The translations under genes were made by a program, and so were the position numbers. 64,000 nt of DNA, taken from the NCBI GenBank assembly GCA_964016885.1, contig OZ024743.1:320664001-320728000 (forward strand). Reading direction: 5' to 3'. The notes under the pieces were generated by a model. It was given only the letters and a program-made list of their open reading frames with translations, had not been told where the DNA came from and searched no databases. Below are positions 30,100-56,437 of this stretch, in pieces (the stretch's first letter is position 1; every line of letters begins with the position of its first letter). This DNA comes from Eledone cirrhosa. Taxonomy: Eukaryota.

Positions 30100-32205
30100 G
30101 GCTTTTATTTATTTATTTATTTAAATATTTAATAATTGTCTATTACCCGTTTCAGTATTTTATGCATTATCAAAGGGGGCAATTTGTATTGGTATAAAAT
30201 GTTGGAGAGAAAATAACGTGATGTTGAACATGTTAAATAAATGGGAAAGAAAGAATAATATTATTTACAAACAAGGTTTTTGAAGTAAAAAGAAAAAAGA
30301 AAAAAAAGGGGGTGATGTGGAACATAATAAGGTAATGGGAAAGAAAGAATATTATTTGCAGGCATAGTTTTCAGAATAAGCAGTTCAAAATGTGTTATTA
30401 TGGCAAGAGCGCTTGGTTGGTCCATAATGGAGAAAAATAGTAGTCTGGGGTTTGATATGATTTCCCTTTTTAGAGAGTTAATATACAGGGGAGAGGGGGT
30501 AATTCAGGGTGGTCAGGCAGGGGAGAGAGAAATGAGACGGGGTAATTCATATATATAAGAAAAAGGATTAGGTAGGGTGTTAGGCAGGTAACTCTTTAGA
30601 GAACATAGGAATTGGGCTTTGGTTCATTGTTCGTTCCAATTTTGGTTTAGTCCGAAGCTTAGTCCATTAAGTAGAGGTTGGAATTTGTTAATGAAGTACG
30701 TTTCCTTATTGGTACGATGGATGAAAGAAGCGTTGTCTATGAATTTGTAACTGGGGAAAATGTTAAAGTTTCGATGTTGGTTAGGTGTACAATTGGCGAT
30801 ATGTTCACTAAAAGCAATCTTTCTGTATTCCTGTATTTTGATTTGTGATCTATGGACGGAGGCTGTTTTTTGTCTGTCCTATTTAGTGCTCTCGACAACT
30901 TGAGCAGGTCAAAACATAGATTAGATTTTCAGATGCACATGCACATTAACTGTGAAATGTTGTCCTTGTTTAAAATGGAATGTTGAAACTTCTATTAGAT
31001 TTATGCAAATACCGCAGTTGGGCCTTCCGCATTTTTTTTACTGTAGGTTTCATTGTGAGGGTTGGTTGGATTTTGGCTTGTCTGGGGATGTTTTTTATGG
31101 ATATAGGTTGCCTTTCGCTCTTTATGATGTTGTGTATTTGGAGGATTTTGTTCATTCTTGGGTCTCTTTTTAGTAAAGGAATGTTCTGGAGGATGGTGCC
31201 GAATGCCTCATTGTTGACGGGGTTGTGTGTGGAGATGTATGGTAGAGTTTTCTGTTGCGGTTCATTCCTGGGTTTGGGGTGTCTGAGTTCCTGGATGTTG
31301 AGTTTTAGGGCACGTTGGAATCCATTGTTGATTAGGGAAGGTGAGTAGTTTCTGCTGATAAGTGTGTTCTTTAATACTTCTAGTCATGTTTAGCATGTGT
31401 ATTTATCTGAAACTATTGTGCAGATCCTTCTGGCTAGGTTATAAGGAATTGCCATTTTGGTATGGCGAGGAAGACAAGACTTAAATGGAAGATATTGTTT
31501 GGAGTCTGTGAGTTTGTAGTATATGTCTGTTTCTACTTTGTTGTTTGTTTTCTTGATGAGGATGTCGAGGAAAGGGAGTTGTTCATGGCTGTAATCCATT
31601 GTAAATTGTAAGTTTGTGTTGCGTCCATTTAGAAGGGTTTTAAACTCAATCAGTCTTTCTATACTCTCATGCCAGAGGAAGAAGCAGTCGTCCAGATATC
31701 TCTTCCAGTTTTTTCTATGTGTAGGTAGACGTGGTTACCGTATTTGTCTAGGACTTTGCGGTAGAGAATGGTTTCCAAATATCCCATGACAAGGTTGGCG
31801 TATGGCAGTCCCAGATTTCTGTCTGTAGTATTTGGCATCGAATTCGAAGAAGTTGTTTTCCAAGATGAATTTGAGTCCCTCCAACACAAATTCTTTTGGG
31901 ATGCGTTGTGGAAGTTCACTATGGAAATTTTCAAGCCAGAATTGTATTGCCTCTATACCTAGGTTGTGTTGGATATTGGAATATAGATTGATGACATCAA
32001 AGGTTACTAGTAGGGTATGTTCATTATTAAGTGTTGTTGGGAGGTGGTTGAGCACGTCAAGGTCATCCCTTATGAAGCTTTTTATGTGTTTTACGAAAGG
32101 TTTAAGCAGAATATCTAGGAAGTTTCTTAGACGGTGGGTTTCACATGTGGTACCTGGTATTATGGGTCTTAATTTAAGGTCATCAGGAGGGGGTATATTG
32201 ATGTA
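30100..32205 (-). mobile_element. 5'-truncated decayed Penelope-like element (different family)
   Basis: LRPII, LVTFDVINLYSNI, YYRQKSGTA, RYLDDCF, LPFLDI motifs with frameshifts; degenerate hammerhead TTGATAA...GAAACGGGTA near 30140-30180. Confidence 0.85.
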
Positions 32206-35600: not shown

Positions 35601-37009
35601 ATGACCTCCGACAGCGTCGTTGGACGCTGGACGGACGGAGCGGTGAAATTGCTCGGGGTCTGGTTCGGTCCAGACCTCCAGGTGGAGAAAAACTGGAACG
35701 AGGTCACGGCCAAGGTGTTTGCGCTCACCCAGAAGTGGGCAGAGTGCAAACTGTCCTTGAAAGGTCGAGCGTAGGTGGCGAACATTTTCATAGCATCCGT
35801 CATCTACTACCGCTTGACTGTCGTGCCTTGTCCCCGTGAACACCTCGACAAGATGGAACGCATACTCTTCCAGTTTCTGCGGAAGAAGCAGGCTCCGCTG
35901 GTGCGGAGATCCGTCTGCTGCCAGCACCCTTCCAACGGAGGGCTGGGGCATCACCGACCCCCCAACCGATGTGGGCACCGTTTGTGAGACAGGCTTTCCC
36001 ACAGCTCGTTTCACTGACGGAGCTGCAGTCATGGGTCAAGAAAAGACCGAAAACGATGGGCGCCTGGCACATTGAATGCGCTGAGGCGCTCACAGTCCTC
36101 TGGCAAGCGGGTGCAGCAATCAGTGGAGACTCCACTTCGACATTCTATAAAGGGTCTGTACGTTACAAGGGCGACGACGTGCTCGGAGAGACTCTGGGCG
36201 TCGAAGATGATGAGCTCACCAGTCTGTTTGGTAGGACTTTCCGCCCGGGACCTATGGACAACTTCCAGAGGTCCCTGGCCTGGCAGTGCTACCGCGGAGC
36301 TCTACCAGTTCGTGACAAGATCTACAGGCACGGACGCCTCGGCACGGATCCTTCCAAGAAGACGTGTCCAAGATGCGAACAGGACATTGAAACAGTCCTG
36401 CACGCAATTGCAGACTGCACGGGCGTAACCGACTTGTGGAACTATGTAGAACAACTGCTGTCGAGTATGGGATAAAACCAGTTGACTGCCGAGTCTATAG
36501 TAAGGATCAAACCGCCAGCATCTTTCAAAAACGAAAGAGAGGCTGTTTTCCTCTGTACAGTGCCTATGGTGAAAGAAGTTATATGGTGGACGAGTTTGAG
36601 AGACTGAGGACAGATGCCTTTCTCTCCGGACAACAATTGATTCCCTTCTTTAAGTATCACTTTAGAAGGAGAATCAGAGAGGAGAGAGAGGAACTGCACC
36701 CCAGTAAATTTACTGAAAGGTGGGTGAATGAAGCGAAAATGGCCCGAGTAATTGTGCCTTCTCTGTTTATTAGCCTATATGTTAAAAAAGAGAGCAAAAG
36801 GAAGAAAGAAGGACTTGCACAACTCGTTCCTGGAGTTGAGGGTTGTTCTGTCGACGGGGTATTAAACAACCCATTTGTGGAGCTTCCCCTCTATTGGGGA
36901 TTTCGATTGTTGTAATTGTGTTTTATATATTTTACAGGACTGTATGTAAAATCCCCGGCATAACTTTGTATTGTCCCCTTTTGTTGTGAGCCTTTGTGGC
37001 AAATAAAGA

Positions 37010-37011
<2 letters not shown>
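32614..37011 (+). mobile_element. Tx1/L1-clade LINE, array unit A (5'-truncated in ORF1, defective)
   Basis: ORF1 remnant; ORF2 from ATG 33662 with APE, RT (QGCPLS, YADD deleted) and C-terminal Cys/His motif; ends GTGGCAAATAAAGAAA + (TCTA)n. Confidence 0.92.
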
Positions 37012-37042
<31 letters not shown>

Positions 37043-37065: not shown

Positions 37066-40000
37066 AGACGTGTATAACTTCGCGGAGAAGTTTCCGTTAA
37101 TTTATGTAAGAAAAAACGTGAGTTTTTACTTAAATTTTATATCATTGTGTAACTTGACCCCCCGTCTGAACCTTCAGGTGTTGGGTCAACTCATTTTCGC
37201 CCCCTATAGGGGCGGAATATCCATTAAAAAAATTTTTCTCCATCGAATCTTGGAAAAAAATATTGTAAAATTTTGATTACGTTATGAACGCTGCGTCCAA
37301 CGATAATGGTGGTGGAGAGGCGTTAAGACTACAAAGCTCGCAGTCAACAACGTCTTCTTCACTAGATACTATAGAGATGGAAAGACAAAATGAAAATAAA
37401 AAAACGAATTCGTATCCAAACAACACAAATGACACCAAACAGTTCAATGACAACAAAAATAACAGCAAAACCAATAATGATGATAAAAGCAACAATGATA
37501 ACAACAACAAAGAAAAAAATAAAGACAACGCCAATAACACCAGCATCAAAGACAACAAAAACACCAAGGAAAATACGGATGATACCAACATCGGTGACAA
37601 CAAGAATAACAACAAGAATAACAACAATAATGACAACACCACCAATACGGATTCCACAAAGAAACCAAAACTCTCCTTACGGATAAAGTTCAAAAGAAAG
37701 AAGAATTGATATATCTCGACATAACAAATGCTGAACAACTTTTAAAGGACGCTAAGAGATATGTCACTTTCGATAAAAATGGTGCTTTCAGCATCAATTC
37801 TCCGGTAGAAATTCGCAAGGAAACTGCTCTCAAAACGATAGTTTTTAGGACAGTTTCCAATTCTACCCGAAAACCAGTCCAATTGTCACAGAAAGAAATT
37901 GAAATGGTTTTCAAAAATTCAATGAATGATATTGCATTCATTCAAAGAAGCAAACTTTTGGGAGTATTTCGGTACTCATGAAGGATCAATTGACGGCCCA
38001 AAATTACTCTGTGTCGCCAATTGTATCCAACCTGTACACCTTTTTCCCTACATACATGGGAAAAAGGACACAAAAGATCAGAATCACAAGTGTCACACCG
38101 AAGGTGAACATATGGTGGATACTGTGCGGCTTCATCAATTTTGATGAAGACAGAATACTGTCAGTAGGAAAGTCCCCCAGAGATGTATTCAATGGGACTA
38201 GCATTGAAGTTCTGGTGCAAATGAGCCCAGAGCGAATAACTATGATCACACAGCGTGTACTCCTGGACGGACTCACCTACATAAACCTTTCGGTTAAGGG
38301 TAGGCGACCTTCATGTTACCATTGCTTTAGCAGGGGTCACCTGAGGGCTTCCTGTTCTAAACTAATGAACCAAAAAAAGGCTCTTCTGCCGACACCCATC
38401 AAAACAACACAACCACCAACACCACCACAACAACAACAACACCAACACACAAAAATAACCACAACAAACACAGTCCCACCCAACCCCACTCCACCTAAAA
38501 CCACTGCAAAATCACATACAGACACAACAGCTCCCCAAGACATAACCCTCCCCAATCACACAGACGATACAACAGATGAGGCTATCTCGCCATCACCCAG
38601 TGAAGACGAGGGAGAACCCCATCGCTCGAAAAGAAAGAAAAGACATCACAAAAGCATAAAACCAGCAAACACTACCACAAACATACAACCACCAACACAA
38701 ACAACAAAAATATCACAAACAAAACCCCCACCTCCTGAAAACAAAATACCTACAACAAAACGAAAACACACACAAGAACTACAGACAAAAACAAACACAA
38801 CACAAGAAAATTACACTTACACTTACATAAACACTGAAAACAAAACACTAATCGAGACCATCACGAACGACCCTTCGGTTTTCACCGAAGGGAAAACTTT
38901 CGCCCACTCTATAAAAAATAGCAAAAAAACTGAACCTAAAACTGATTAGGGTCCCTATACAAACTTATAGGTCCCTAAAAGAAACATTTGAGAAGGATGT
39001 GGGTAATTCCTGCGTGAAACCACTCAACCGCGTCCTTCTCAAATGCCTCCCCACCCCAGACACCCCCATCCCACCAGACCCCACCCCACCTAACATCTGC
39101 GTCCCCACCCCGCCGGAAACCACCACCCATCCAGACAACCCCTCCAACACCCCCATGGAAATCGCGTGGCCTGGTCCCCAGGAGGCGAAGGGTGAGTGAT
39201 CTCTTTTCCTCTTTTAACTTTTCAGCACCAACATGGCCAATATAAGAGTTGGATGTGTGAACGTACGCGACCTGGGGATGCCCTGGAAACAGGGCAAACT
39301 CTTAAACGACCTCAGGTCGCACAGTATGGATGTGGTAGCCATTTGCGAGTCCAGGATCCACAGCGAGTGACAGCTGGCCCCCATCTTCGATGACTTTGAG
39401 ATCTCCGCATCTCTCTGTCAACCGGGGGGTGGGGGCGGAGTTGCCGCTTTGCTGCGGAAACACCTGGGCCTCGTAACACAGACGGTACATCTGGACCCAG
39501 AGGGTCGACTGGTGGTCCTAGACGTTGACGGTAGTGAAGGTGGAGCCTTCAGGCTGGTGGCCGCATATGCCCCATCCGGGACACCGCGGCCAGACTTCTT
39601 CAAACGTCTAGAGACTTTTCTGGGAACGTCCCGCTCCTTGCTTTTAGTGGGGGACTGGAATGGAATCCTAGATGCACGTTGGGACTATGTGGGAGCATGT
39701 CCCGATAAAGGGGGGTGTAACAGCCTCAAACAGTTAATCGACCGATTTGACCTGGCCGATAGATATCGACTAGATTTTCCGACTGCGCCACTGTGGACGT
39801 GGAGTAATCGTAGCGGAACATCTAGATCGTACCTAGATAGGGTTCTAGTTAGAAATAAGGATAGGGACATGTTAAGCTGTCCACAAATGTTCATGGTTGC
39901 CTATTCAGATCACAAACTAGTGACCTGTATGGCCAACCTTGATAGAACCCATAGACAAGGACCCGGCTACTGGAAGCTGAACTTGTCATTACCGACAAGC

Positions 40001-42910
40001 AAAGCCTACAGTAGACGGATTAGCACTTTAGTTAAACAGCACTTGACAGGGGCCATTGTCAACAACAGATGGTGGTACTCTCTCAAGAGGGCAGTTAGAT
40101 TAGACTCGATAGTTTTTAGTAAAGAATTAGCGTTAGATAGAAATAGAACCGAGAAGGAACTGGTAGATAAAGTAGAAGAGGCAATTAGAAGTGGCAACGT
40201 AGCCAGCGTGCTAGCAACAAGAACGGCCTTGGACCAGTTCTTCGACGCAAAGCACGAGGGCTGCGTTGTCAGAAGCAAAATACGTGCTCTGGGAAACGAG
40301 GGAGCCAAAGCTGTTAGCTGGGCCCGAGTGATGGAGGCAAAAAGTGGCAACAAGTCCACAATCCGGTCTTTGAAGGACCAAAACGGACGCGTGATACGTG
40401 AGCCGAAGCAGATGTGTGCGGCTTTTCAGCGGCATTTTGCTCGGATGTTCGCGCGGAGCGGCGCGCCGGGAGAGGCTATGGATTTCGGTCCATACCTCGA
40501 CGGCCTACCGCGACTCTCGGACAGTGGGGCGAAGTTCTGCGAAAAGCCGATTTCAGCCACTGAGATAGGGGACGCGCTGAGCCAATGCGGCAAACGCAAA
40601 TCTCCAGGTCTCGACGGTCTACCCTACGAATTTTACGTAGCAATGCCGCACTTATTCTCCGGTCTCCTGGAAGCGGTCTACTGCAACTGGCAACAGAACG
40701 GGAGAATTCCCAGTTCTGTAACCGGGGGCGTGGTCACACTAATCAGGAAGGACGAGAATAAGGGGGATGACACAGGCAACTTCCGGCCCATAACTCTGCT
40801 AAACACAGAGTTACAGATTTCGTGCAAGGTGCTGGCAAAGAGGCTGGCGCTTGTCGTCGAGAACCTGATGGGAGAAGCGCAGACATGCGCAATCCCGGCC
40901 AGGTCCATACACGACAACCTCCACCTCATGCGATACATCGTAGAGAGGGTAGGGTGTAAACCCGGCTTCGGTGGGGCCCTGATCAACTTGGATCAGTCTA
41001 AAGCTTTCGATAGGGTTGACCATCGTTACCTGGATGCGGTGCTCGAGGCGGCAGGCTTCAGACCCGTGTTCAGGGGCTGGATTGCTGCAATGCACAAAAG
41101 CAACATCTGCTCAAGGGTCAAGGTGAACGGCTACCTCTCGGAGCCGTTCCATATTACGCGATCCATTCGACAGGGATGCCCTCTCTCCTCCCTTCTGTAC
41201 GTACTGACTCTCGAGCCACTACTGCGGAAGTTGGAGGTATTGCATGGCATCCCTCTGGAACCGGGACTGCGGAAAGCGGCGTGGAACTACGCCGACGACG
41301 TGACAGTAATGGTGTCGAGCGCCTCGCAAATCGAGGAAGTCGGCACCTTACTGAAGGAATACGAAAGTCTAACAGGAGCGAAGCTGAACCGGGAGCAAGT
41401 CCATCGGTTTGCAACTCGGATCGTGGAGAGGCAGACCGATGCCTTCCGTTGGCGTCGTCGGACGCTGGACGGAAGGACCGTTAAAGCTGTTCGGGGTCTG
41501 GTTTGGTCCGGACCTCCAGGTGGAGAAGAACTGGAACGAAGTGACGGCCAAGTTGTTTGCACTCACCCAGAAGTGGGCCGAGTGCAAACTATCCTTGAAA
41601 GGTCGAGCGGAGGTGGCGAACACTTTTATAGCGTCCGCCATCTACTACCGCTTGACCGTCGCGCCTTGTCCAGCCAAAACGCTCGCCAAAATGGAGCGCG
41701 CGCTCTTCCGATTCCTTTGGAAGAGGCGGGCTCCTTTGGTGAGAACATCCATCTGCTGCCAACACCCTTCTAACGGAGGGCTGCGAATGCCGTGGTTGAC
41801 GATGCGCAAACACGCGCTCAGGCTGCGGCATCTCTACGTATTCCTCACCGGACAGCCGGTGTGGGCCCCGTTCGTGAGGCGAGCCTTCCCAAGACTCGTC
41901 TCGCTGACCGAGCTGCAGTCCTGGGTCAAGCAGAAATCGAGGAAAATGGGCGACTGGCACATCGAATGTGCTCAGGCGCTCACAGCCCTCTGGCAGGCGG
42001 ACCCGGCGATCAGTGGAGACTCCACTTCGTCATTCTATAGAGGGTTGGTCCGCAGCAAGTGCGACGACGTGCTCGGTGAAACTCTAGGCGTAGAGGAAGA
42101 TGAACTGGCCAGTCTGTTCGGTAGGACCTTCCGCCCGGGACCGATGGACAACTTCCAAAAGTCCCTGGCCTGGCAGTGCTACCGAGGAGCTCTACCATTT
42201 CGAGACAAGCTCTACAGACATGGGCGCCCGGGCAGGGACCCTGCAAAAAAGATCTGTCCGTGGTGCGTGCGAGACGAAGAAACCGTCGCGCACGCATTCA
42301 TACACTGCTTGGGCGTCACTGACCTGTGGGGCTATGTAGAACGACTATTGTCGCGGGTGGGACCAATCCAGTTGACCACCGAATCCATTGCCATGATCAA
42401 ACCGCCACCCTCCTTCAAAATCGAAGGAGAGGCGGTTTTCCTTTGTGTGATAGCTATGGCGAAAGAGGTTGTATGGTGGACAAGGTTGAAAGGGCTGAGG
42501 TCAGACACCTTTCTCTCCGGCCAACAACTGATTCTTTTTTTCAAATACCACTTTGGAAGAAGAATCAGGATGGAGAGAGAGGTGCTGTACCCCAGCAAGT
42601 TTTATGAAAGGTGGGTGAAAGTGGCAACAATGGCTCGAGTGAATAGGCCTTCTCTCTATATCAGCCTGTAGGTTGAGGAAAAGGAGGAGGAGAGGAAAGG
42701 AGTACAAACTCTTCGTACTCCTGGGGATGAGGGTTGCACATTTTCTTTCGGGGGTATGTGTTACCCATATAAACTGTCTCCCTCTATTGGGGAAAATCGA
42801 CTAACTTTTTAAATTCCATTTGTGATAACATTTTACACGTTTTTATTGTATTTAAACTTCCCTCTTTGTACTTGTCCCCTTCTTTTGTGCCCCTGTGGCT
42901 AATAAAGAAA
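37066..42910 (+). mobile_element. Tx1/L1-clade LINE, array unit B (near full length, a few frameshifts)
   Basis: ORF1 ~37284-39199 with CYHCFSRGHLRASC knuckle; ORF2 39233-42671 with GDWN, YLDR, SDH, DQSKAFDRVDH, QGCPLS, YADD, CPWC..H..C. Confidence 0.95.
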
Positions 42911-42940
42911 TCTATCTATCTATCTATCTATCTTTCTGTC

Positions 42941-45900
42941 TGACGTGTGGAACATCGCCGGTAAGCTTTTTTGTTAATTTCTATGCAAAAAACCGATCTA
43001 ATTGTTTGAAAAAACACAACACTTTGTAGATTAACCCCCAAGCTGAATTGTCAGCTGGGTGGTAATCCCATTGTTCGCCCATGTAGGGGCGAACATTTTA
43101 TTTTAAAATTTTGTTTTAAAATATCAGATTTTACAAAGTAAATAACTTGAGCAACACAAGAACGCTGGAGAACGTTAATAGAGAAAAGAGAGAGAAAGAG
43201 GCAGATATTAACGTTATATCTGCTTCTGCTACTATGGACGTCGCCATATATACAACTGTCACAAAAGAAAAAAATATATTAACACCTGAAAATTTTACAA
43301 TTTCTACCGCCGAAGCGGAGTAAAATAACAATAACACACAGGAAAACACAGCAAAAAAACCCATTGACATGCACATGAAAAAGACATCAACAACTCTACA
43401 GATACATCTACACAAAGTTTCACCTCGACAAAGAACTGAGATTTCCAACAACGATAACAACATCATCAACAGCAACACCACACAAAAAAAAAAAGAAAAT
43501 GTCTTTCGCTGAAACAGTGATCAAAAAACAAGATTTTATAAATCTTGATATCTCCAACGCAAGAGATATGCTCCAGCAAGGGAGAAAATTTGTAACTTTC
43601 GAAGAAAGAGGTGGGTTTAGAATTAACTCACCCCTTGAAATAAAGGAAGACACAAACCGCAGATCAGTCACTTTTCGGTCTGTGTCAAATTCGACAAGAA
43701 ATCCGACATTTGTTAATCAAGCAGATATAGAAGATTCTTTTAAGGAAATTCTAGCAAATGTCGATTTTCTCCAGCGAGGAAAACAGTACGGAAGTGTTTC
43801 CGTACTGTTTAAAAGCGAGGCCCTCGCCCAAAAAACTCTGTGACACCAATAGTGTCAAAAGCATACACCTTTTTCCCTACATACATGGGGAAAAGGACAC
43901 AAAAAATAAAAATAAAAAACATACCTCCAAACATTAACATCTGGTGGATCTTGGCTGGCTTCGTAGAGCCAGAAACAGACATAATACTTACAATACGAAA
44001 ATCAATTCGACAAAGGTGGGCGGGCACAGATTTGGAGATTCTGTTGAAAATGAAACTGGAGAGAATCTCCAAAATACCCGAAAAAGTCGTTATTGATAAT
44101 AACAACAAAATAAACATTTAGGTAGAAGGACGAAAATTTCATTGCTTTCGCTGTGGTAGCACAGCTCACCTAAAAGCCTCTTGTCGACAAACACACAACA
44201 ACAACATCATAAAAAAAGGCTATTACCAACACCAACACCAAAACAACCACCACCACCACAAGTACAACGACAGACGGAACGAGCAACCACACCAAAACAA
44301 ACAGACACTCAACCAACAACAACAGAAAAAACAGAGACAACACCCCTGAAGAACACTTCCCCACTCCATCCTACTCCATCAAACACTACCACAAACACAC
44401 ATACCGAAACACCACCACCACCACACAACATACCCTTACCCCACACACCTGACGATGATTATTCATCGACGGATAAAGCTGCTTCTCCTTCTTTAAGTGA
44501 AGAAGAGGGAGAACCACGGAAATCTAAAAAAACAAAAAAGAGACACCACGAAACCCCCAAAACTCCAATCACCGACACCAACACACAACCACAGACACAA
44601 ACAACAACACAAACAACACCACAGTCAAACATCCCCCTATCAGCAAAACCAGCACCGACACCACCCCAAACACAAGCATCCACCATAAAAAGAAAACTCC
44701 CGGATGAACAACAAACTAAAACAATACAACAAAAACACAAACAACAAAAACTCAAACAACAATACACATACATCAACACAAACAAATAGAGTTTGATGGA
44801 GGTCATCTCCCAAAACCCCAAGGTGGAGACGGAGGGCAAAACTTTCGTCAAGGCAGAATCGTCTCCACACCTTAAACTTATAAGGGTTTCTATGGAAACC
44901 TATAAAGACCTAAAAATAAAATTTTCACAGGACGTGGGAAACCCCTGCCACAACCCCATCAACCGCGTCCTGTTGAAATTTTTCCCCACCCCACCCAACA
45001 CCCCATCCAGCACCCAAATGGAGATTGAACAACCCGATCTCCAGGTAAGTGCACCTTTCGTCCTTTTTCTCCAACTTTTCATCACCAACATGGCTGGTTT
45101 ACGAGTTGGAACCGTGAATGTGCGTCGCCTAGGGATGCCCTGGAAAGAGGGCCAACTCTTAAACGACCTTAGGTCACACAGTATGGATGTAATAGCCATC
45201 ACCGAGTCCAGGATCCACAACAGGCAGCAACTAACCCCCATCTTCGACGACTTTGAGATCTACGCATCTCTCTGTCAGCCAGGAGGTGGAGGTGAAGTGG
45301 CTGTTATGTTTCGGAAGAACCTGGACGTCGGAGTACAGCAAGTACACTTGCACCCGGAGGGTAGACTGGTAGTCCTAGACGTGAACAGTATCGGAGGTGG
45401 AGCCTTCAGACTGGTGGCCGTTTATGCCCCGACCGGGCAATCGCAATCACGGCCAGACTTCTTTAAGCGTCTAGAGTCTTTTCTGGGAACGTCTCGCTCC
45501 TTACTTTTAGTGGGGGGGGGACTGGAATGGTATCCTAGATGCACGATGGGACTATGTGGGAGCATGTAGAGCGGGGTGCAACAGCCTCAAAACTTTAATC
45601 GGCCAATTCCAACTGGCCGATAGGTATCGACTGGATTTCCCGACTGCACCACAGTGGACGTGGGTAAACCGCAGTGGGACATCTAGATCGTATTTAGATA
45701 GGTTCTTCATTAGAGAAAGGGACAAGGAGATGTTAAGCTGTCCACGAATGCACATGGTTGCCTACTCAGATCGCAAGTTAGTCGTCTGCTTAGTCAACCG
45801 TGATAGAATGCATAGACAGGGTGCCGGATACTGGAAGCTGAGCGTGTCGTTGCCGGCACGTAAAGCTTACAGTGAACGGATAAGTAGACTAGTCAAGCAA

Positions 45901-48546
45901 CAGTTAACGGGAGCCATCGTCAACAATAGATGGTGGTACACTCTCAAGAAAGCAATTAGAATAGAATCGATAGGGTAGAGCAGAGAGTTAGCCTTAGAGA
46001 AAAACAAAATAGAAAGAGAACTATTAGCCAAGGTAGAGGAGGCACTTAGAAGTGGCAACGCGGCTAGAGTGTTAGCGTCGAGAACGGCACTGGACCAGTT
46101 CTTCGATGCAAAACACGAAGGCTGCGTGGTCAGAAGCAACTAACGTGCTCTAGGAAACGAAGGAGCGAAAGCTGTCAGCTGGGCCCGAGTGGCGAAGGCA
46201 GAAAGTGGCAACAAGTCCACGATTCGGTCTTTGAAAGACCAGAACGGACGCGTGCTACTTGACCCCAAGCAAATGTGCGCCGCCTTTCAGCAGCACTTTG
46301 CGCGACTGTTTGAGCAGAACGACGGTGAACCAAACGGGGCAAAGGACTTTAGTTCATACCTCAACGGCCTGCCGCGTCTCTCGAACACGGACGCCGAGTT
46401 CTGCGAAAGTCCGGTCACGGAAACTGAGATACGGGACGCTCTGGGCTGCTGCGGGAAACGCAAGTCACCCGGTCTAGATGATCTCCCCAATCGGTTTTAC
46501 ATAGGCGTGCCGGACTTGTTCTCTGGCGTCCTCGAAGCCGTCTACTGCAATTGGCAGTAGAACGGGAGCATTCCCAGTTCTGCAGGCAAGGGCGTAGTAA
46601 CGCTGATCAGGAAAGACGAGAACAAGGTGGTCGAAATTAACAACTTCAGGCCCATAACTCTGCTCAACACAGAATTAAAGATTTTGGCCAAGGTGCTAGC
46701 GACGAGACTGGCGCTTGTCGTCGAGAACCTGGTAGGGAAAGCGCAAACGTTTGCAATCCCGACCAAGTCCATACACGACAACCTCCACCTCACGCGATAC
46801 ATCATAGAGAGGGTGGGTAGTAAACCCGGCTTCGGTGGGGCTCTGATCAACTTGGATCAGTCTAAGGCATTCGATAGGGTCGACCATCGATACTTGGAAC
46901 GGTTCTCAAGGCGGCCGGTTTCGGTCCCGTTTTCAGAGGTTGGATCGAGGCGATGCACACCAGCATCTGCTCGGGGGTCAAGGTGAACGGCTACCTATCG
47001 GAGCCGTTTGCACTCACGGGTTCCATTCGACAGGGGTGCCCTCTCTCCTCCATTCTGTATGTATTGACTCTAGAGCTACTACTGCAGAAATTGGAGCTGT
47101 TGCAGGGAATCCCTCTAGAACCGGAACTGCGCAAAGCGACGTTACAATAATGGTCTCGAGCATCTCGGAAATCGGGGTGATCGGCAACTTACTGAAAGAA
47201 TATGAAACGCTGACGGGAGCAAAACTAAACCCAAACAAGTCTGTCGGTTTGCAACTCGGTACGTGGAGAGGCAAACCGATGACCTCCGACAGCGTCGTTG
47301 GACGCTGGACGGACGGAGCGGTGAAATTGCTCGGGGTCTGGTTCGGTCCAGACCTCCAGGTGGAGAAAAACTGGAACGATGTCACGGCCAAGGTGTTTGC
47401 CCTCACCCAGAAGTGGGCAGAGTGCAAACGAAACGTCGAGCGGAGGTGGCGAACATTTTCATAGCGTCCGTCATCTACTACCGCTTGACTGTCGTGCCTT
47501 GTCCCCGTGAACACGTCGACAAGATGGAACGCATACTCTTCCAGTTTCTGCGGAAGAAGCAGGCTCCGCTGGTGAGGAGATCCGTCTGCTGCCAGCACCC
47601 TTCCAACGGAGGGCTGGGCATCACTGACCCCCCAACCGATGTGGGCACCGTTTATGAGACAGGCTTTCCCACAGCTCGTTTCACTGACGGAGCTGCAGTC
47701 ATGGGTCAAGAAAAGACCGAAAACGATGGGCGCCTGGCACATTGAATGCGCTGAGGCGCTCACAGTCCTCTGGCAAGCGGGTGCTGCTATCAGTGGAGAC
47801 TCCACTTCGACATTCTATAGAGGGATTGTACGTTACAAAGGCGACGACGTGCTAGGAGAGACTCTGGGCGTCGAAGACAATGAGCTCACCAGTCTGTTTG
47901 GTAGGACTTTCCGCCCGGGACCTATGGACAACTTCCAGAGGTCCCTGGCCTGGCAGTTCTACCGCGGAGCTCTACCAGTTCGTGACAAGATCTACAGGCA
48001 AGGACGCCTCGGCAAGGATCCTTCCAAGAGGACGTGTCCAAGATGCGAGCAGGACATTGAAACAGTCCTGCACGCACATTGTTGACTGCACGAGCGTAAC
48101 CGACCTGTGGAACTATGCAGAACAACTGCTGTCGCGTATGGGACAAAACCATTATACTGCCGAGTCTATAGTAAGGATCAAACCGCCAGCATCTTTCGAA
48201 AACGAAAGAGAGGCTGTTTTCCTCTGTACAGTGCCTATGGTGAAAGAAGTTATATGGTGAATGAAGCGAAAATGGCCCGAGTAATTGTGCCTTCTCTGTT
48301 TATAAGCCTATATGTTAAAGAAGAGAGCAAAAGGAAGAAAGGAGGACTTGCACAACTCGTTCCTGGAGTTGAGGGTTGTTCTGTCGACGGGGTATTAAAC
48401 AACCCATTTGTGGCGCTTCCCCTCTATTGGGGATTTCGATTGTTGTAATTGTTTGTTTTATATTTTTTACACGACTGTATGTAAAATCCCCGGCATAACT
48501 TTGTATTTTCCCCTTTTGTTGTGAGCCTTTGTGGCAAATAAAGAAA
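42941..48546 (+). mobile_element. Tx1/L1-clade LINE, array unit C (full length, defective; same subfamily as A)
   Basis: 5' UTR, broken ORF1, ORF2 from ATG 45090 with stops and YADD deletion; (TATC)n at both ends. Confidence 0.93.
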
Positions 48547-48568
48547 TTATCTATCTATCTATCTATCT

Positions 48569-50696
48569 AACAGGGGGGACGATATAAATAATTTCAGGCC
48601 CATAACTCTGCTAAATACAGAGTTACAGATTTTGGCCAAGCTGCTAGCAAAGAGGTTGGTGCTTGTCGGGGGCAACCGAGTGGGAGATGCGCAGACATGT
48701 GCTATCCCGTCCAGATCCATCCGCGACAACCTCCACCTCATGCGATGCATCATATAGAGGGTTGTGAGCGAGCCCAGCTTTGGTGCGGCCCTGATCGACT
48801 TGGATCAATCTAAGGCGTTCGATAGGTTCGACCATGGTTACCTGGATGCGGTGCTAGCGGCGTCAGGCTTCGGACCCGTTTTCAGGGTCTGGATCATTGC
48901 CATGCACAGCAGCCGCATCTGCTCTAGGGTCAAGGTGAACGGCTACCTCTCGGAGCCATTCGAAATCGCGCGATCCATCCGACAAAGGTGCCCACTCTCC
49001 TCCCTTCTGTATGTAATGACTCTAGAGCCACTGCTGCGGAAGTTGGAGTTGTTGCAGGGCATCCCGTTGGAACCGGGATTGCGGAAAGCAGTGTCGGCCT
49101 ACGCCGATGACGTAACAGTAATGGTGTCGACCGCCTCGTAAATCGGGGCGATCGGCACCTTACTGGAGGAGTACGAAAGTTTTACAGGGGCTAAGCTGAA
49201 CCGGGACAAGTCGATCGGTCTGCAACTCGGCACGTGGAGGGGCAAATCTATGCCCTCCGATGGCGTCGTCGGGCGCTGGACGGAGGGCCCGGTGAAGCTG
49301 CTCGGGGTCTGGACCCAGAAGTGGACCGAGTGCAAAATTGTCCCTGAAAGATCGGGCGGAGGTGGCGAACACTTATATAGCGTCCGTCATCTACTACCGC
49401 CTGACCGTCGTGCCCTGCCCAAGGAAACGCTCGCCAAAATGGAGCGCGCACTCTTCCAATTCCTTTGGAAGAAGCAGGCTCCTATGGTTAGGAGATCCAT
49501 CTGCTGTCAACACCCTTCGAAAGGAGGGTTGGGGCATGCCGTGGCTGGTGATGCGTAAACACGCATTAAGGCTACGGGACCTCCAGATATTCCTCATCGG
49601 TCAACCGGTGTGGGCTCCGTTTGTGAGGCGAGCCTTTCCCAGACTCGTCACGCTCACCGACCTGCAATCCTGGGTCAAGCAAAGACCGCTAAAACTGGGC
49701 GCCTGGCACACCGTGTGTGCCCAGGCGTTCACGGCTCTCTGGCAGGCGGACCCGGCTGTCAGTGGAGAATCCACCTCGTCATTCTATAGAGGGCTGGTGG
49801 TTAGCAGGTGTGACGACGCCCTCCGAGGAGCCCTAGGCATGGAGGAAAACGAACTGACCAAACTGTTCGGTAGGACATTCAGCCAGGGACCTATGGATAA
49901 CTTCCAGAGGTCTTTTGCCTGGCAGTGCTACCGAGGGACTCTGCCCGTTCGAGAAAGGCTCTACAGACACGAGCGCCCGGGTAGGGAACCCTCGAAAAAG
50001 ATCTGTCCCAGATGCGTGTGCGATGAGGAAACCATTGCACACACATTGGTACACTGCTCGGGCATTGCCGATCTGTGGGGCTATGTCGAACGACCGCTGT
50101 CACGGGTGGGACCGATCCGGTTGACCACCGAGTCTATTGTAACGATCAAGCCGCCTCTCTTCAAAAACGAATGAGAGGCGGTGTTTCTGTGCGTAATAGC
50201 CATGGTGAAACAGGTTGTATGGTGGACGCGTCTGAAAGGACTTAGGTCAGACACCTTTCTCTCTGGCCAACAACTGGTTCGTTTCTTCCGATATCATTTC
50301 GGAAGAAGGATCAGGAGGGAGAGAGAGGTGCTGCACCCCAGTCGTTTTTATGAAAGATGGGTGAAAGTGGCGAGAATGGCCCGTGTGAATGGGCCTTCAC
50401 TCTACATCAGACTGTAGGTGAGAAAGATGAAAGATCAAGGGAGCACCCTCTCTCTGTGCTCCTGAGGAGAAGGGTTGCACACTGTTTTTTTGGGGGGGGG
50501 GGGGGTGCGACCCCCCAAGGCGCCTCCTCCCTATTGAGGATTTTGTTATTCAATTTATTTTTGTCATATTTTATATCTTATATTTTTATATTTTGTTATT
50601 GCCTCCTCCTTATTAGAGACGCCTTTTTATGTAACCCCCCCCCCCACCATTGTACTTGTCCCACTCTTTGATGCCCTGGTGGCAAATAAAAAGAAA
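48569..50696 (+). mobile_element. Tx1/L1-clade LINE, array unit D (5'-truncated within RT; same subfamily as E)
   Basis: Begins at ...GDDINNFRPITLLN directly after (TATC)n; SAYADD; ORF2 stop at 50417. Confidence 0.93.
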
Positions 50697-50745
50697 GTTA
50701 TCTATCTATATACCTATCTATCTATCTATCTATCTATCTATATAC

Positions 50746-53700
50746 CTGATGGACACATGTGCTGAGCTCGCTCGGTAAGTTTCGTTTAAATTTATCTGGA
50801 AATTGTGAACTGTAAACGTTCATTTTCGTACCATTTTGTAGAGGGACTGCCAGGTCAAATTTTGATCTGGTTAGTCTCTCAAAATATTCTACGCCTTTAG
50901 GCGAAATAGTGTTATAAAAATTTTACTTTCGAAAAATCCTATTTTGAAAAAAATGGCTGAAGCATCTTCACCAACAGTCAAAGAAAGAAAAGGGAAGTCA
51001 TACTCACAGCTTTCTCCTGCCACTGTCACAGCAGCAGATGCCAAAGGCAGAGGTCAGCCAGAGGAAGAATTTTCTTCACCTGTTGACCGACAACTTGATG
51101 TAGCCACAACTATACAAGAAACTGAAAACAACAACAACAACGACAACAACAGCAACAATAAAGACAACAAAAACAACACAAACGTCACATATGTAGTAAA
51201 CACTTCCTTTCGTAAAGAAAGGGAATTTCACACAATAAAAAAGAAAATAACAGCCCACAACAGACACCAAAAAATACAGAAAATTAAAAAATTGAAAACA
51301 CATCCAACAATACCAATCAAAAGGAAAAAAATGTCAACACAAACACCAAAGAAAATACAAACAACAGTGACAACAACAGCAAAATTTCTTTTGCTGATAC
51401 CGTAAAAAAAACGGAAATATTTCAACTTTGGGATTTAACCAACGCGAAACAAAAGTTGGAAGATGCTAAACAATATGTGACTTTTGGACCCAATGGGTCA
51501 TTTAGCATAAATTCACCACAAGAACTAAGGAGAGAAAATGCCCTGAACACGGTGGTTTTCAGGACAATCTCAAATGCATCAAAAAAACCAGCTCAACTAT
51601 CTCAGAGTGAGATTGAGCTAGTATTAAGGAACCACATGGATAACATTTCATTTATTCAGAAAGCCAAACTTTTCGGCAGCATCTCGGTGCTAATGAAAAA
51701 CAACATAACAGCACAAAAATATTCCATCGCGCCCATTGTGTCCACCCATTTTACATTTTTCCCTACATACATGGGAAAAAGAACGCAAAAAATAAAAATT
51801 ACATGTATAAGACCCAAAGTAGATATTTGGTGGATACTTTATGGCCTAATTGACCTTGAACAAGACACTTTGATCTCAGTAGGAAAATCCTCCAGAGATA
51901 TATTTAGTGGGACTAGCATCGAAATTCTGGTGCAGATGAGCCGAGAACGTATAATGAAAATCCCACAGAGAGTACCTCTGGATGGACAGATCTACATAAA
52001 CATTTCGGTTGAGGGTAGGCGGTCCGCATGTTACCACTGCGCAAGCAGAGGTCACCTAAGGGCTGCCTGTCCTCAATTGACAAAAAAAAAACACTTTTAC
52101 CAACACCACAAATAACAACACAACCACCACCACCACGACAACAAGAAAAAACAACAGAGAACAATATTCCACCCAACTCCTCCCCACCCAAAACAAATAC
52201 AAAAACACACACAGACACTACAGAACCCCAAAACATACCCCTACCCATCAACACGGATGAGGAACCCCTATCGACGGCACCCAGCGGCGATGAGGAGGAA
52301 CCCTTCCAACCCGTGAAAAGAATAAAAAGAAAGAACCGCATGAACAAAAACGAAACAAACACACAAACACCAGCACAAACAGCACAAAAATCACAAACAA
52401 AAGTTCCCCCTCCCGAAAACAAAACACCCACAACAAAGAGAAAACACGTGCAGGAACCACAGACAAAAACAAACACAACACAGGAAAAGTACACATACAC
52501 TTACATAAACGAAGAAAATAGAACACTGATGGAGACCATCAGAAACAACCCTTTGGTCAAAACCGAAGCGAAAACTTTGGATAGCTCCAACAAAAACAAA
52601 AAAATGAACCTAAAACTGATCAGGGTCCCTATAGGAACTTATAGATCCCTAAAAGAAACATTTGTAGAGGACGTGGGGAATTCCTGCGTGAAACCAATCA
52701 ACCGCGTCCTCTACAAAGGCCTCCCCACCACAGGCACCCCCACCCAAGTCATCCCCAACCCACCAGACACCCTTTCCCCACCAAACACCTCCGTCCCCAC
52801 CCCGCCAGAAACCACCACCCCACCCAACAACCCATCCCCCACCCTCATGGAAATTGTGCAGCCCGATACCCGGGACTTAGAGAGGTAAGTGCCTTTTCTC
52901 TTCACCACCAACATGGCTATGCTAAGAGTAGGCTGTTTAAATGCGCGTGGCCTGGGCTCAACTTGGAAGCAAGCAATGCTTCTAAATGACCTCAGGTCAC
53001 AACGTATAGATGTGATGGTTATTTGGGAGGCCCCGATCAGCAACGTGCGACAGCTGGCCCCCACCTTTGATGACTTTGAGATGCACGCATCTCTCTGTCA
53101 GCCCGGAGGTGGGGGTGGGGTTGTCGATCTGCTGCAAAAACATCTGGGTCTCGCAACACAGATGGTACATTTGGACCCGAAAGGTCGACTAGTGATTCTG
53201 GACCTTGGCAGTGGTGAAGGCGGAGCATTTAGGTTGGTAGCCGCCTACGGCCCTTTCGGGTCAATGCGGCCGGACTTCTTCCATCGTCTGGAGAATTTTC
53301 GAGGGACGTCCCGCTCCTTGCTATTAGTGGGGGACTGGAATGGTATCCTAGATGCACGCTGGGACTACGTAGGGGCCTGTCCCGATAGAGAGGGGTGCAA
53401 TAGCCTCAAAGGGTTAATCGGTCGATTTGACCTGGCCGATAGATATCGACTAGATTTTCCGACTGCGCCAACCTGGACTTGGGAAAATCGTAGCGGATCA
53501 TCTAGGTCGTACCTAGATAGGTTCTCAGTTAGAATTAAGGATAAGGACTTTTTAAGTTGTCCAAAACTGCGCATGGTTGGCTATTCAGACCACAAGTTAG
53601 TGACCTACATGGTCAACCTTGACAGAACTCATAGACAGGGACCCGCTTAATGGAAGCTCAACTTGTCCTTACCGGCAAGTAAGGCTTACAGGGACCGGAT

Positions 53701-56437
53701 TAGCACTTTAGTTAAGGAGCGGTTGACGGGCGCCATCGTCAACAGCAGGTGGTGGGGATCTCTCAAAAGAGAGATTAGAGTAGTCTCTATAGAATTTAGT
53801 AAGGAGTTAGCCTCTAATAGAAACAGGAAGGAAAGGGAGTTGGTAGATAGTGTAGAAGAGGCAATTAGAAGCAGCAACGTGGCCAGAGTGCTAGCGTCGA
53901 GAACGGCCCTGGGGCAGTTCTTCGACGCGAAACACGAAGGCTGCATCGTCCGAAGCAAAATACGTGCTCTGGCAAACGAGGGGACCAAAGCTGTTAGCTG
54001 GGCCCGCGTGACAGAAGCCAAAAGAGGGAGCAGATCCACTATCCGGTCTTTGCGAGACCAGGGTGGACGGGTGATCCTTGAACCTAAGCAGATGTGCGAG
54101 GCTTTTCAAAAGCACTTTGCCGGATTGTTCGGAAGGGGCGGGGGGCCGGTTGGGGATGTGGACTTCGGTCCATACCTCGACGGCCTGCCGCGTCTCTCGG
54201 ACAGGGAGGCGAAGTCCTGCGAGGAGCCGATCTCAGCCGCTGAGATAGAGGACGTGCTGAGCCAATGCGGCAAACGCAAATCCCCGGGTCTCGACGGTCT
54301 TCCATACGAACTATATCTAGCTATGCCGGACTTGTTCCCCGATCTCCTCGAGGCGGTCTACTGCAACTGGCAACAGAACGGGAGAATTCCCTATGCTGTG
54401 ACCAAGGGCGTAGTCACGCTAGTGAGGAAGGACGAGAACAAGGGGGACGATATAAATAATTTCAGGCCCATAACTCTGCTAAATACAGAGTTACAGATTT
54501 TGGCCAAGTTGCTAGCAAAGAGGTTGGCGCTTGTCGTGGGCAACATGGTGGGAGACGCGCAGACATGTGCTATCCCGTCCAGGTCCATCCACGACAACCT
54601 CCACCTCATGCGATACATCATAGAGAGGGTTGGGAACGAACCCGGCTTTGGTGGGGCCCTGATCAACTTGGATCAATCTAAGGCATTCGATAGGGTCGAC
54701 CATGGTTACCTGGATGCGGTGCTAGCGGCGGCAGGATTCGGACCCGTTTTCAGGGGCTGGATCAATGCCATGCACAGCAGCCGCATCTGCTCTAGGGTCA
54801 AGGTGAACGGCTACCTCTCGGAGCCGTTCGAAATCGCGCGGTCCATCCAACAGGGGTGCCCTCTCTCCTCCCTTCTGTATGTAATGACTCTAGAGCCACT
54901 GCTGCGGAAGTTGGAAGCATTGCAGGGCATCCCGTTGGAACTGGGATTGCGGAAAGCGGTGTCGGCCTACGCCGACGACGTAACAGTAATTGTGTCTACG
55001 GCCTCGGAAATTGGGGCGATCGGCACCTTACTGGAGGAGTACGAAAGGTTTACAGGGGCTAAGTTGAACCGGGACAAGTCGATCGGTCTGCAACTCGGCA
55101 CGTGGAGTGGCAGATCGATGCCCTCCGATGGCGTCGTCGGGCGCTGGACGGAGGGCCCGGTGAAGTTGCTCGGGGTCTGGTTCGGACAAGACCTCCAGAT
55201 GGAGAAGAACTGGGGTGAGGTAACGAACAGGGTGTTTGCAATGACCCAGAAGTGGGCCGAGTGCAAACTGTCCCTGAAAGGTCGGGTGGAGGTGGCGAAC
55301 TCTTATATAGCGTCCGTCATCTACTACCGCCTGACCGCTGTGCCTTGCCCAATGGAAACGCTCGCCAAAATGGAGCGCGCACTCTTCCAATTCCTTTGGA
55401 AGAAGAGGGCTCCTATGGTGAGGAGATCCATCTGCTGTCAACACCCTTCGAAAGGAGGGCTGGGGCATGCCGTGGCTGGTGATGCGTAAACACGTATTAA
55501 GGCTACGGCACCTCCAGGTATTCCTCTCCGGTCAACCGGTGTGGGCCCCGTTTGTGAGGCGAGCCATTCCCAGACTCGTCTCACTCACCGAGCTGCAATC
55601 CTGGGTCAAGCAAAGACCGAGAAAACTGGGCGCCTGGCACACCGAGTGTGCCCAGGCGCTCACGGCTCTCTGGCAGGCGGACCCGAGGACCCATGGATAA
55701 CTTCCAGAGGTCCCTGGCCTGGCAGTGCTACAGAAGGGCTCTGCCCGTTCGAGAAAGGCTCTACAGACACGGGCGCCCGGGTAGGGACCCCTCGAAAAAG
55801 ATCTGTCTCAGATGCGTGTGCGACGAGGAAACCGTTGCACACGCATTGGTACACTGCTCGGGCATTGCTGATCTGTGGGGCTATATTGAACAACTGCTGT
55901 CAAGGGTGGGACCCATCCGGTTGACCACCGAGTCTATTGTAACGATCAAGCCACCTCCCCTCTTCAAAAACGAAGGAGAGGCGGTGTTTCTGTGCGTAAT
56001 AGCCATGGCGAAAGAGGTTGTATGGTGGACGCATCTGAAAGGACTAAGGTCAGACACCTTTCTCTCTGGCCAACAACTGGGCCGTTTCTTCCGATATTAT
56101 TTCGGAAGAAGGATCAGGATGGAGAGAGAGGTGCTGCACCCCAGCCGTTTTTATGAAAGATGGGTGAAAGTGGCCAGAATGGCCCGTGTGAATGGGCCGT
56201 CACTCTACATCAGATTATAGGCGAGGAAAAGGGTTGCACACTTTTTTTTGGTGGGGGGGGCGAACCCCTAAGGCGCCTTCTCTCTATTGAGGATTTTGTT
56301 ATATATTTTATTCTGTTATATTTTATTTTATTTTTATATTTTGTTATTGCCTCCTCCTTATTGAGGATGCCTTGTTTTGTAAACTCCCCCCATTGTACTT
56401 GTCCCACTTTTGATGCCCTGGTGGCAAATAAAAGAAA
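50746..56437 (+). mobile_element. Tx1/L1-clade LINE, array unit E (near full length)
   Basis: ORF1 ~50953-52888 with CYHCASRGHLRAAC; ORF2 52913-56220 with one stop, frameshifts and an internal deletion near 55685. Confidence 0.95.

What the first reader, a model, noticed from the sequence alone, without database searches (positions are those of the whole stretch)
37066..50908. Structure-conserved, sequence-divergent 5' UTR module in three Tx1-like subfamilies
Seen in B, C and E, in the same order: GAC(N)TGT..TCGC..G(T/G)AAG at the 5' end, then TTGT, then a long hairpin (TTGACCC/GGGTCAA + CTGAA/TTCAG 37154-37189; GATTA..AGCTGA/TCAGCT..TAATC 43029-43067; GAGGGACT..CCAGGTCAAA/TTTGATCTGG..AGTCTCTC 50841-50880), then a CGCC/GGCG hairpin (37196-37217, 43072-43095, 50885-50908). 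Pairing is kept despite near-complete sequence change. It does not fit hammerhead or HDV consensus by eye. Inference: an uncharacterised cis-acting RNA for translation, packaging or processing of array read-through transcripts.
Basis: partly seen in the sequence, partly recalled or inferred. Interest (0 to 1): 0.75.

Follow-up and report, generated by a model that had tools for sequence, protein, structure and literature searches.

The report
LINE promoter, locked intron, twin hairpins
The front end of these repeat-targeting jumping genes has three parts: a likely internal promoter, an intron-shaped segment that none of the genomic copies checked has lost, and two hairpins, of which the first keeps its pairing while its letters change and likely hides the splice acceptor.

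Summary
The motifs and hairpins are at the stated coordinates, at the 5' ends of full-length L1/Tx1-group LINEs in (TCTA)n. In 15 leader variants from the genome the module splits in three. (1) The first motif resembles the downstream promoter element of insect LINEs and Penelope; in the two leaders with a unique 5' end it lies at +28/+29, so in the other variants transcription is predicted to start inside the target repeat. (2) The next motifs look like a splice donor and acceptor 60-69 nt apart; this stretch does not fold (z -1.6 to +1.3). No spliced genomic copy was found (0 against 314 C-type, 0 against 912 E-type). B has lost both sites and carries a candidate pair further down. (3) Hairpin 1 covaries (11 of 17 pairs changed on both sides; 0 of 400 neutral simulations fold as well) and starts on the acceptor G; hairpin 2 is weaker. 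No ribozyme or Rfam match. Best reading: Pol II promoter plus splice signals that are bound but rarely cut. Nothing is shown at RNA level. The scan noted the intron and hairpins before on other DNA of this genome; the promoter ruler is added here.

The parts
37038..37039 (+). Predicted transcription start of element B, inside the (TCTA)n target repeat
   Evidence: Inference from the +28/+29 spacing measured in leader H and in the RLE leader; not shown by RNA
37066..37073 (+). DPE-like motif of B
   Evidence: Sequence; consensus from PMC2377424; 26 of 27 fetched copies keep it
37086..37152 (+). Intron-shaped segment of B with both splice sites lost
   Evidence: Aligns to B2, C, E, K segments; no GT at its start, no AG at its end
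37118..37177 (+). Candidate replacement donor-acceptor pair in B (60 nt; its acceptor lies in the inner stem of hairpin 1)
   Evidence: Sequence; donor in 26 of 27, acceptor in 27 of 27 copies; same pair in H; function inferred
37152..37191 (+). Hairpin 1 of B
37196..37217 (+). Hairpin 2 of B
   Evidence: z -5.2
37066..42910 (+). Full-length LINE B (ORF1 with CCHC knuckle; APE-RT-zinc ORF2, frameshifted in this copy)
42941..42948 (+). DPE-like motif of C (predicted start 42913-42914 in the repeat)
42961..43029 (+). 69-nt GT-AG intron-shaped segment of C
   Evidence: donor and acceptor each in 29 of 29 copies; spliced-type junction 0 against 314
43029..43068 (+). Hairpin 1 of C; first paired base is the acceptor G
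43072..43095 (+). Hairpin 2 of C
   Evidence: z -6.5
42941..48545 (+). Full-length LINE C (decayed ORFs)
50751..50758 (+). DPE-like motif of E (predicted start 50723-50724 in the repeat; register uncertain by up to 4 nt)
50775..50841 (+). 67-nt GT-AG intron-shaped segment of E
   Evidence: donor 30 of 30, acceptor 29 of 30 copies; 0 of 5 candidates spliced against 912 unspliced
50841..50880 (+). Hairpin 1 of E; first paired base is the acceptor G
50885..50908 (+). Hairpin 2 of E (weak)
   Evidence: z -1.7
50751..56435 (+). Full-length LINE E

Best explanation
The module is the 5' leader of (TCTA)n-inserted L1/Tx1-group LINEs and consists of a likely internal Pol II promoter element, a 60-69-nt intron-shaped segment that is likely bound by the splicing machinery but rarely cut, and two predicted RNA hairpins, the first of which likely hides the acceptor. 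Shown: element anatomy, motif order and spacing in 15 leader variants, 5' ends 27-28 nt before the promoter motif in two leaders with unique ends, compensatory changes in hairpin 1, no spliced genomic copy. Inferred: TFIID reads the motif and starts RNA 27-28 nt upstream, which in most variants is inside the target repeat; U1 binding at the donor near +47 aids transcription, export or protection of the A-rich RNA from early cleavage; hairpin 1 pairs the acceptor G and the following 39 nt, so the RNA that is copied stays unspliced. My odds for the steps: promoter 0.8, hairpin 1 under selection for RNA structure 0.9, motifs are splice signals 0.65, hairpin 1 acts on the acceptor 0.4.
For: Promoter: motif resembles the DPE of Drosophila LINEs and Penelope (PMC2377424); DPE position about +28 to +32 (PMC4748587). 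Leader H has a unique 5' end: 740 matches; in the first 100 listed, 82 share an A 28 nt before the motif with mixed letters upstream, and 16 have a G at the junction that the repeat cannot supply, as a copied cap would give (counted by eye). An RLE-type LINE leader has the motif at +28/+29 from its unique end and a donor after 45-46 nt. Splice signals: GT donor at +47 to +51 in 11 of 15 variants, both common forms of the donor consensus used (K differs from C/E at +3), segment 67-69 nt in 10 and 60 nt in J and N; acceptor AG in 12 of 13 aligned rows; Penelope has a 75-nt intron 46 nt from its start. A second donor covers the ORF1 stop with all three stop codons. Hairpin 1: 72% of cells paired against 57.6% in shuffles, 11 of 17 pairs with a change on both sides, slid controls 25-59%; mean energy -21.2 against -12.1 for neutral decay from a perfectly paired ancestor, 0 of 400; sense strand folds better than antisense in 9 of 10 with RNA parameters; the acceptor-G position can pair in 12 of 12 rows.
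Against: No RNA-level evidence for start site, splicing or structure. B, H and H2 lack the +47 donor and are among the most abundant leaders; their replacement pair is my assignment, and part of that donor may be ancestral sequence. In the automatic alignment the donor columns are no more conserved than the linker (0.67 against 0.67; only 6 of 13 rows in one column, the E group being offset by one), and the linker has 4 invariant columns of its own, so the neutral test of the splice motifs (1 of 5000 or fewer) overstates. N has an unusual acceptor; branch points are not clear except in J. The 12 hairpin rows stand for only about four independent lineages; in K the stem base is open; J lacks a full hairpin 1; the RLE leader keeps donor and acceptor without a strong hairpin (z -1.0), so hairpin 1 is not always needed to keep copies unspliced, if that leader is unspliced throughout (not tested). 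DPE match is poor in C and K at the first position; spacing is off by one from the textbook value when counted from the shared A.
Confidence: 0.5

Rival explanations
1. A true Penelope-type intron: a large share of transcripts is spliced to make the translated mRNA, and only unspliced RNA is copied.
For: Same layout as Penelope, where most transcripts are spliced while genomic copies keep the intron and deleting it abolishes reporter protein (PMC2377424); Chlamys-3_cRei has a similar intron (PMC8557442). Exon 1 ends in G in most variants, so hairpin 1 would survive splicing.
Against: LINE proteins prefer the RNA that made them (established for human L1, recalled); spliced human L1 RNAs leave about 2% of full-length copies (PMC5860796), against 0 here. 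Contigs of run X4 (kind not on record) bridge the segment unspliced in B and C.
Confidence: 0.2
2. The donor- and acceptor-like motifs are DNA sites of the promoter and have nothing to do with splicing; the hairpins serve translation or ORF1 protein binding on their own.
For: In human L1 the 5'UTR donor is kept as part of a RUNX3 site (PMC5860796). Spacing from promoter motif to hairpin 2 is nearly fixed; other linker columns are invariant too; B and H do well without the +47 donor.
Against: The variation at the donor follows the splice consensus (K; also all three stop codons at the ORF1-end donor); a donor-acceptor pair recurs at other spacings in J, N and the RLE leader.
Confidence: 0.17
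3. One reading: one structured cis-acting RNA for translation, packaging or processing of array read-through transcripts.
For: Both hairpins are real predictions in 15 of 15 variants taken together (z -2.5 to -7.5); they lie 80-130 nt before ORF1.
Against: The first ~90 nt do not fold; 5' ends follow promoter spacing; copies occur outside arrays; single copies lose hairpin 2 (L067, L100, L105, L115).
Confidence: 0.1
4. A self-cleaving ribozyme that releases elements from read-through RNA, as in R2 or L1Tc.
For: Such ribozymes exist at LINE 5' ends (L1Tc, PMC4748587); elements form tandem arrays.
Against: No Rfam hit at gathering score in the window; no ribozyme family among 50 matches at E up to 10 in 7 loci; 0 of 15 variants fit my loose HDV descriptor or hold the hammerhead core (descriptors recalled, no positive control run); extra G at H junctions suggests a cap.
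Confidence: 0.03

Closest known systems
Penelope of Drosophila virilis, 5' region (PMC2377424; passages and sections 15, 18 read; figure 4 not held)
   Same: Internal promoter with the same DPE, short intron about 46 nt after the start, kept in genomic copies
   Different: Penelope is a GIY-YIG element with shown splicing; here APE-type LINEs, splicing not shown, two hairpins abut the acceptor, start predicted inside the target repeat
Chlamys-3_cRei 5'UTR intron (PMC8557442; passages read)
   Same: 5'UTR intron overlapping an internal promoter
   Different: 398-nt intron, Penelope-like element, supported by Iso-Seq
DPE promoters of jockey, Doc, F, G, I, SART1, TRAS1 and L1Tc (PMC4748587; passages read)
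   Same: Downstream element about 28 nt after the 5' end
   Different: L1Tc overlays an HDV ribozyme; none here; no intron described in the passages read
Human L1 5'UTR splice sites and SpIREs (PMC5860796; abstract, sections 7 and 10 read)
   Same: Conserved donor in a LINE 5'UTR
   Different: Spliced copies make about 2% of full-length L1s and the donor is kept as a RUNX3 site; here no spliced copy was found
Tx1-clade Kibi, Koshi and crocodilian Tx1 (PMC4494074; passages read)
   Same: APE-type LINEs that target microsatellites
   Different: Target here is (TCTA)n; no leader structure described in the passages read; clade placement not tested
Zebrafish ZfL2-1 5'UTR splice sites (recalled; not confirmed)
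   Same: If my recall is right, a LINE with functional splice sites near its 5' end
   Different: L2 clade; details unchecked

Membership tests
Tx1 clade / L1 group LINE | ORF2 with N-terminal APE endonuclease and RT | tested here: met
   Pfam Exo_endo_phos and RVT_1 above cut-off in 3 of 3 intact ORF2; best solved match human L1 ORF2p, E 2e-34, R2 6e-19
Tx1 clade / L1 group LINE | C-terminal zinc motif in ORF2; ORF1 with CCHC knuckle | tested here: inconclusive
   zf-RVT below cut-off in 3 of 3 intact ORF2, at cut-off in 2 window fragments; CCHC pattern in B, C, E, Pfam zf-CCHC below cut-off in 2 of 4 ORF1
Tx1 clade / L1 group LINE | Insertion in a microsatellite target | tested here: met
   30 of 30 B copies have TCTA-type repeat directly upstream; selection by query that began 6 nt into the repeat
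Tx1 clade / L1 group LINE | RT groups with named Tx1 elements in a tree | not testable with these tools
   No named Tx1 reference among hits
Downstream promoter element (DPE) | Consensus match | tested here: met
   B, B2, O match the printed LINE consensus fully or nearly; C, K deviate at the first positions
Downstream promoter element (DPE) | About +28 from the start | tested here: met
   +28/+29 from the 5' end of inserted copies in H and in the RLE leader; insertion ends stand in for RNA starts
Downstream promoter element (DPE) | Needed for transcription, bound by TFIID | not testable with these tools
   Needs reporter and binding assays
U2-type spliceosomal intron | GT donor and YAG acceptor | tested here: met
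   C and E in the window; 11 of 15 variants with donor at +47 to +51, J at +79; not met at that place in B, H, H2
U2-type spliceosomal intron | Branch point | tested here: inconclusive
   Clear in J (17 of 19 copies), degenerate elsewhere (read by eye)
U2-type spliceosomal intron | Spliced product exists | tested here: inconclusive
   None among genomic copies and no joint in contigs on C; no run on record as RNA was available, so splicing itself was not tested. Not filed as a shown intron
HDV-like ribozyme | Nested double pseudoknot | tested here: not met
   0 of 15 fits (recalled descriptor); no Rfam match
Hammerhead ribozyme | Catalytic core motif | tested here: not met
   0 of 15; no Rfam match
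Conserved RNA structure (hairpin 1) | Compensatory changes beyond controls | tested here: met
   R-scape not available; about four independent lineages

The most novel reading that the evidence does not exclude
APE-type LINEs that carry a working intron and keep it through thousands of retrotranspositions because an RNA hairpin gates the acceptor, within a portable promoter-plus-intron cassette that also fronts an unrelated RLE LINE and mirrors Penelope; in most variants the target microsatellite itself supplies the transcription start and the first 14-18 nt of the RNA, tying promoter function and 5' joining to target choice.
Probability: 0.25. Interest if true: 0.75.

Novelty: new variant of a known kind. 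Interest (0 to 1): 0.5.

Why it matters
Intron retention is treated as a peculiarity of Penelope-like elements and its meaning is stated to be unknown (PMC8557442). A LINE group with 15 natural leader variants, some that lost or moved the sites, gives a ready series for testing what promoter-proximal splice signals do for a retroelement, and whether a target repeat can serve as the initiator.

Tried and rejected
Rfam at gathering score and at E up to 10: only sub-threshold matches, none on the module. Sequencing runs: no RNA holder listed. Laying X1-X4 on 14 kb gave a joint table cut to 15 rows, 737 not shown, so it says nothing on B or E splicing; on C alone no joint at the splice sites. Metagenome loci: 80 loci at 23-38% identity, too distant, not examined for the leader. 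Protein search for longer forms was uninformative. A pattern for promoter motif plus short intron with other acceptors gave 3 matches against 3 for the control. Spliced copies at the ORF1-end donor: none among 33 and 25 listed matches. Splicing from the 5' donor to any other acceptor was not tested. YY1 site, Sm site and spliced-leader RNA were considered from recalled consensus and dropped: not kept across variants. The 'core 6 pairs' test was chosen after seeing the data and is not relied on. One search scanned 17 of the 21 frames first chosen. No covariance model was built. Literature: searches listed no paper describing this leader in Tx1 or octopus LINEs; Repbase entries and subscription papers are outside the library; no supplements were read, and Penelope figure 4 is not held.
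Full report
Observation. The three leaders, their motifs and both hairpins are at the stated coordinates. The hairpin regions fold far better than shuffles (z -3.7, -5.0, -5.5) and the 75-76 nt before them do not. They are the 5' ends of full-length, two-ORF LINEs of about 5.6-5.9 kb in a head-to-tail array joined by (TCTA)n. ORF2 has APE endonuclease and RT and is closest to human L1 ORF2p among solved structures. Placement in the Tx1 clade rests on anatomy and the microsatellite target (PMC4494074, passages) and was not tested by a tree. The closest named protein is from an argonaut.

More variants. Searches and walks in the own genome gave 15 leader variants with 1 to 30 fetched copies each (H2, O, K2 and N rest on one copy). 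Thirteen align almost without gaps from the first motif to hairpin 2; N aligns poorly and J was left out.

Part 1, promoter. The first motif resembles the downstream promoter element printed for Drosophila LINEs and Penelope (PMC2377424, section 15), which lies about +28 to +32 from the start (PMC4748587, passages). Leader H gives a ruler because its 5' end is unique sequence: of 740 matches, the first 100 are listed, and by my count 82 share an A 28 nt before the motif with mixed letters upstream, 16 showing a G at the junction that the repeat cannot supply (the pattern excluded G at its first place, 45 nt upstream). A second ruler came from an earlier scan note: an RLE-type LINE leader has the motif 27 nt after its first unique base, 28 nt after the A that precedes it in 98 of 100 listed copies (that A may come from the TAA target). 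In the other variants only about 9-14 nt of unique sequence precede the motif, so the start is predicted inside the target repeat. This is inference from insertion ends, not from RNA.

Part 2, intron-shaped segment. A GT donor lies at +47 to +51 in 11 of 15 variants and at +79 in J; the segment is 67-69 nt in 10 and 60 nt in J and N, and does not fold (z -1.6 to +1.3). K uses the other common donor form. Penelope has a 75-nt intron 46 nt after its start. B lost both sites; H and H2 lost the donor; these carry a donor 33 nt further on and an acceptor inside hairpin 1, 60 nt apart (B 37118-37177). Against: donor columns are not above linker conservation in the automatic alignment and the linker has invariant columns too. 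No spliced genomic copy was found: C 0 against 314 exact unspliced matches; E, F, G 0 of 5 candidates against 912; B and H 0 of 24 candidates; B2 0 of 48 listed (read). These exact patterns test one acceptor each and miss diverged copies. Human L1 leaves about 2% spliced copies (PMC5860796, section 7). Contigs of run X4, kind not on record, bridge the segment unspliced in B and C.

Part 3, hairpins. On a sequence-only alignment of 12 variants one 17-pair register gives 72.1% paired cells against 57.6% in shuffles (0 of 500), 11 pairs changed on both sides (7 of 500), further pair types not above shuffles (157 of 500), slid controls 25-59%. RNAalifold finds 8 pairs, 5 with double changes, at a weak consensus energy of -2.8 kcal/mol because inner and outer registers slip between groups. 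With relatedness included, neutral decay from a perfectly paired ancestor at the observed 57% identity gives a mean of -12.1 against -21.2 observed (0 of 400; paired cells 3 of 400). Arms swapped between groups fold much worse than native ones. The sense strand folds better in 9 of 10. The stem starts on the acceptor G in C, E, B2, H and O. Hairpin 2 has z below -3 in 10 of 15 and -1.3 to -1.8 in 5 and is deleted in single copies. No Rfam or ribozyme match.

Mechanism. Most likely the host's Pol II machinery reads the promoter motif and starts a capped RNA in or at the edge of the target repeat; U1 binds the donor and helps transcription, export or survival of the A-rich RNA; hairpin 1 covers the acceptor so that the copied RNA stays whole; hairpin 2, and perhaps hairpin 1, may also serve translation or ORF1 protein binding. 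All functional steps are inferred (0.5). Rivals: real Penelope-type splicing (0.2), DNA sites only, as for the RUNX3-overlapping donor of human L1 (0.17), one structured RNA (0.1), ribozyme (0.03). The RLE leader keeps promoter motif, donor and acceptor without a strong hairpin: this fits a host-facing cassette separable from the hairpins, but it weakens the idea that hairpin 1 is required as a lock.

Novelty. Each ingredient has a precedent (DPE in LINEs; retained promoter-proximal intron in Penelope and Chlamys, PMC8557442 passages). Searches listed no description of this combination in Tx1 or octopus LINEs; an Octopus vulgaris repeat annotation only counts L1-Tx1 families (PMC13282606, passages); PMC5753468, PMC3880073 and PMC4754038 (passages) added nothing. 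A zebrafish LINE with 5' splice sites is recalled and unconfirmed. The scan had already noted the segment and hairpins on other DNA of this genome (e1-10316865, e1-10350415, seen after my own analysis); a look-up for the promoter ruler listed no such note among 8 shown. Verdict: real feature, new variant of a known kind, interest 0.5.

Noticed in passing
window 33617, 45045, 52885; L101-L301: A splice-donor consensus covers the ORF1 stop, 28-45 nt before the ORF2 start, with TAA, TGA or TAG in different families. No spliced copy among 58 listed matches. Also noted earlier by the scan.
   Followed up: partly
L107, L158, L288, L294: The ORF1-end donor region is complementary to the sequence just after the ORF2 stop: duplex -50 to -66 against -25 to -31 kcal/mol for shuffles in 4 of 5 copies; the fifth (L301) had a shortened ORF2 and was compared at the wrong place. 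Lead from earlier finding e1-9545361.
   Followed up: partly
L370:6960-7240 (minus), L372-L391: An RLE-type (Dong-like) LINE in (TAA)n arrays carries a leader with the same order of promoter motif, donor and acceptor (54 nt) but no strong hairpin 1; 2042 first-look candidates; body checked as RLE-type in L370 only, similarity to Tx1 leaders weak.
   Followed up: partly
L110, L114, L116, L290, L296, L298: Leaders and ORF1 are combined with different ORF2 and 3' ends, so the subfamilies are mosaics.
   Followed up: no
L117, L118 (C1, 211.90-211.91 Mb and 212.38 Mb): A ~970-bp satellite whose unit holds the E leader up to the first bases of hairpin 1, then unrelated sequence.
   Followed up: partly
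L126, L133, L135: Three B2 copies start at the same place about 25 nt before the acceptor, outside TCTA repeats; cause unknown.
   Followed up: no
window 36985-37010, 42885-42910, 50670-50695: A short conserved hairpin-like motif precedes the polyadenylation signal at every 3' end.
   Followed up: no
L107, L156-L158, L288, L294: Intact 1145-1148-aa ORF2 in six copies: the group was active recently.
   Followed up: no
window 30600-32200 minus; 23531-25888 minus: A decayed RT-like stretch that looks Penelope-like by eye, and a 785-aa frame without Pfam match.
   Followed up: no
P0033: Closest named ORF2 relative is from Argonauta hians (64%), so the host is likely an octopod.
   Followed up: no
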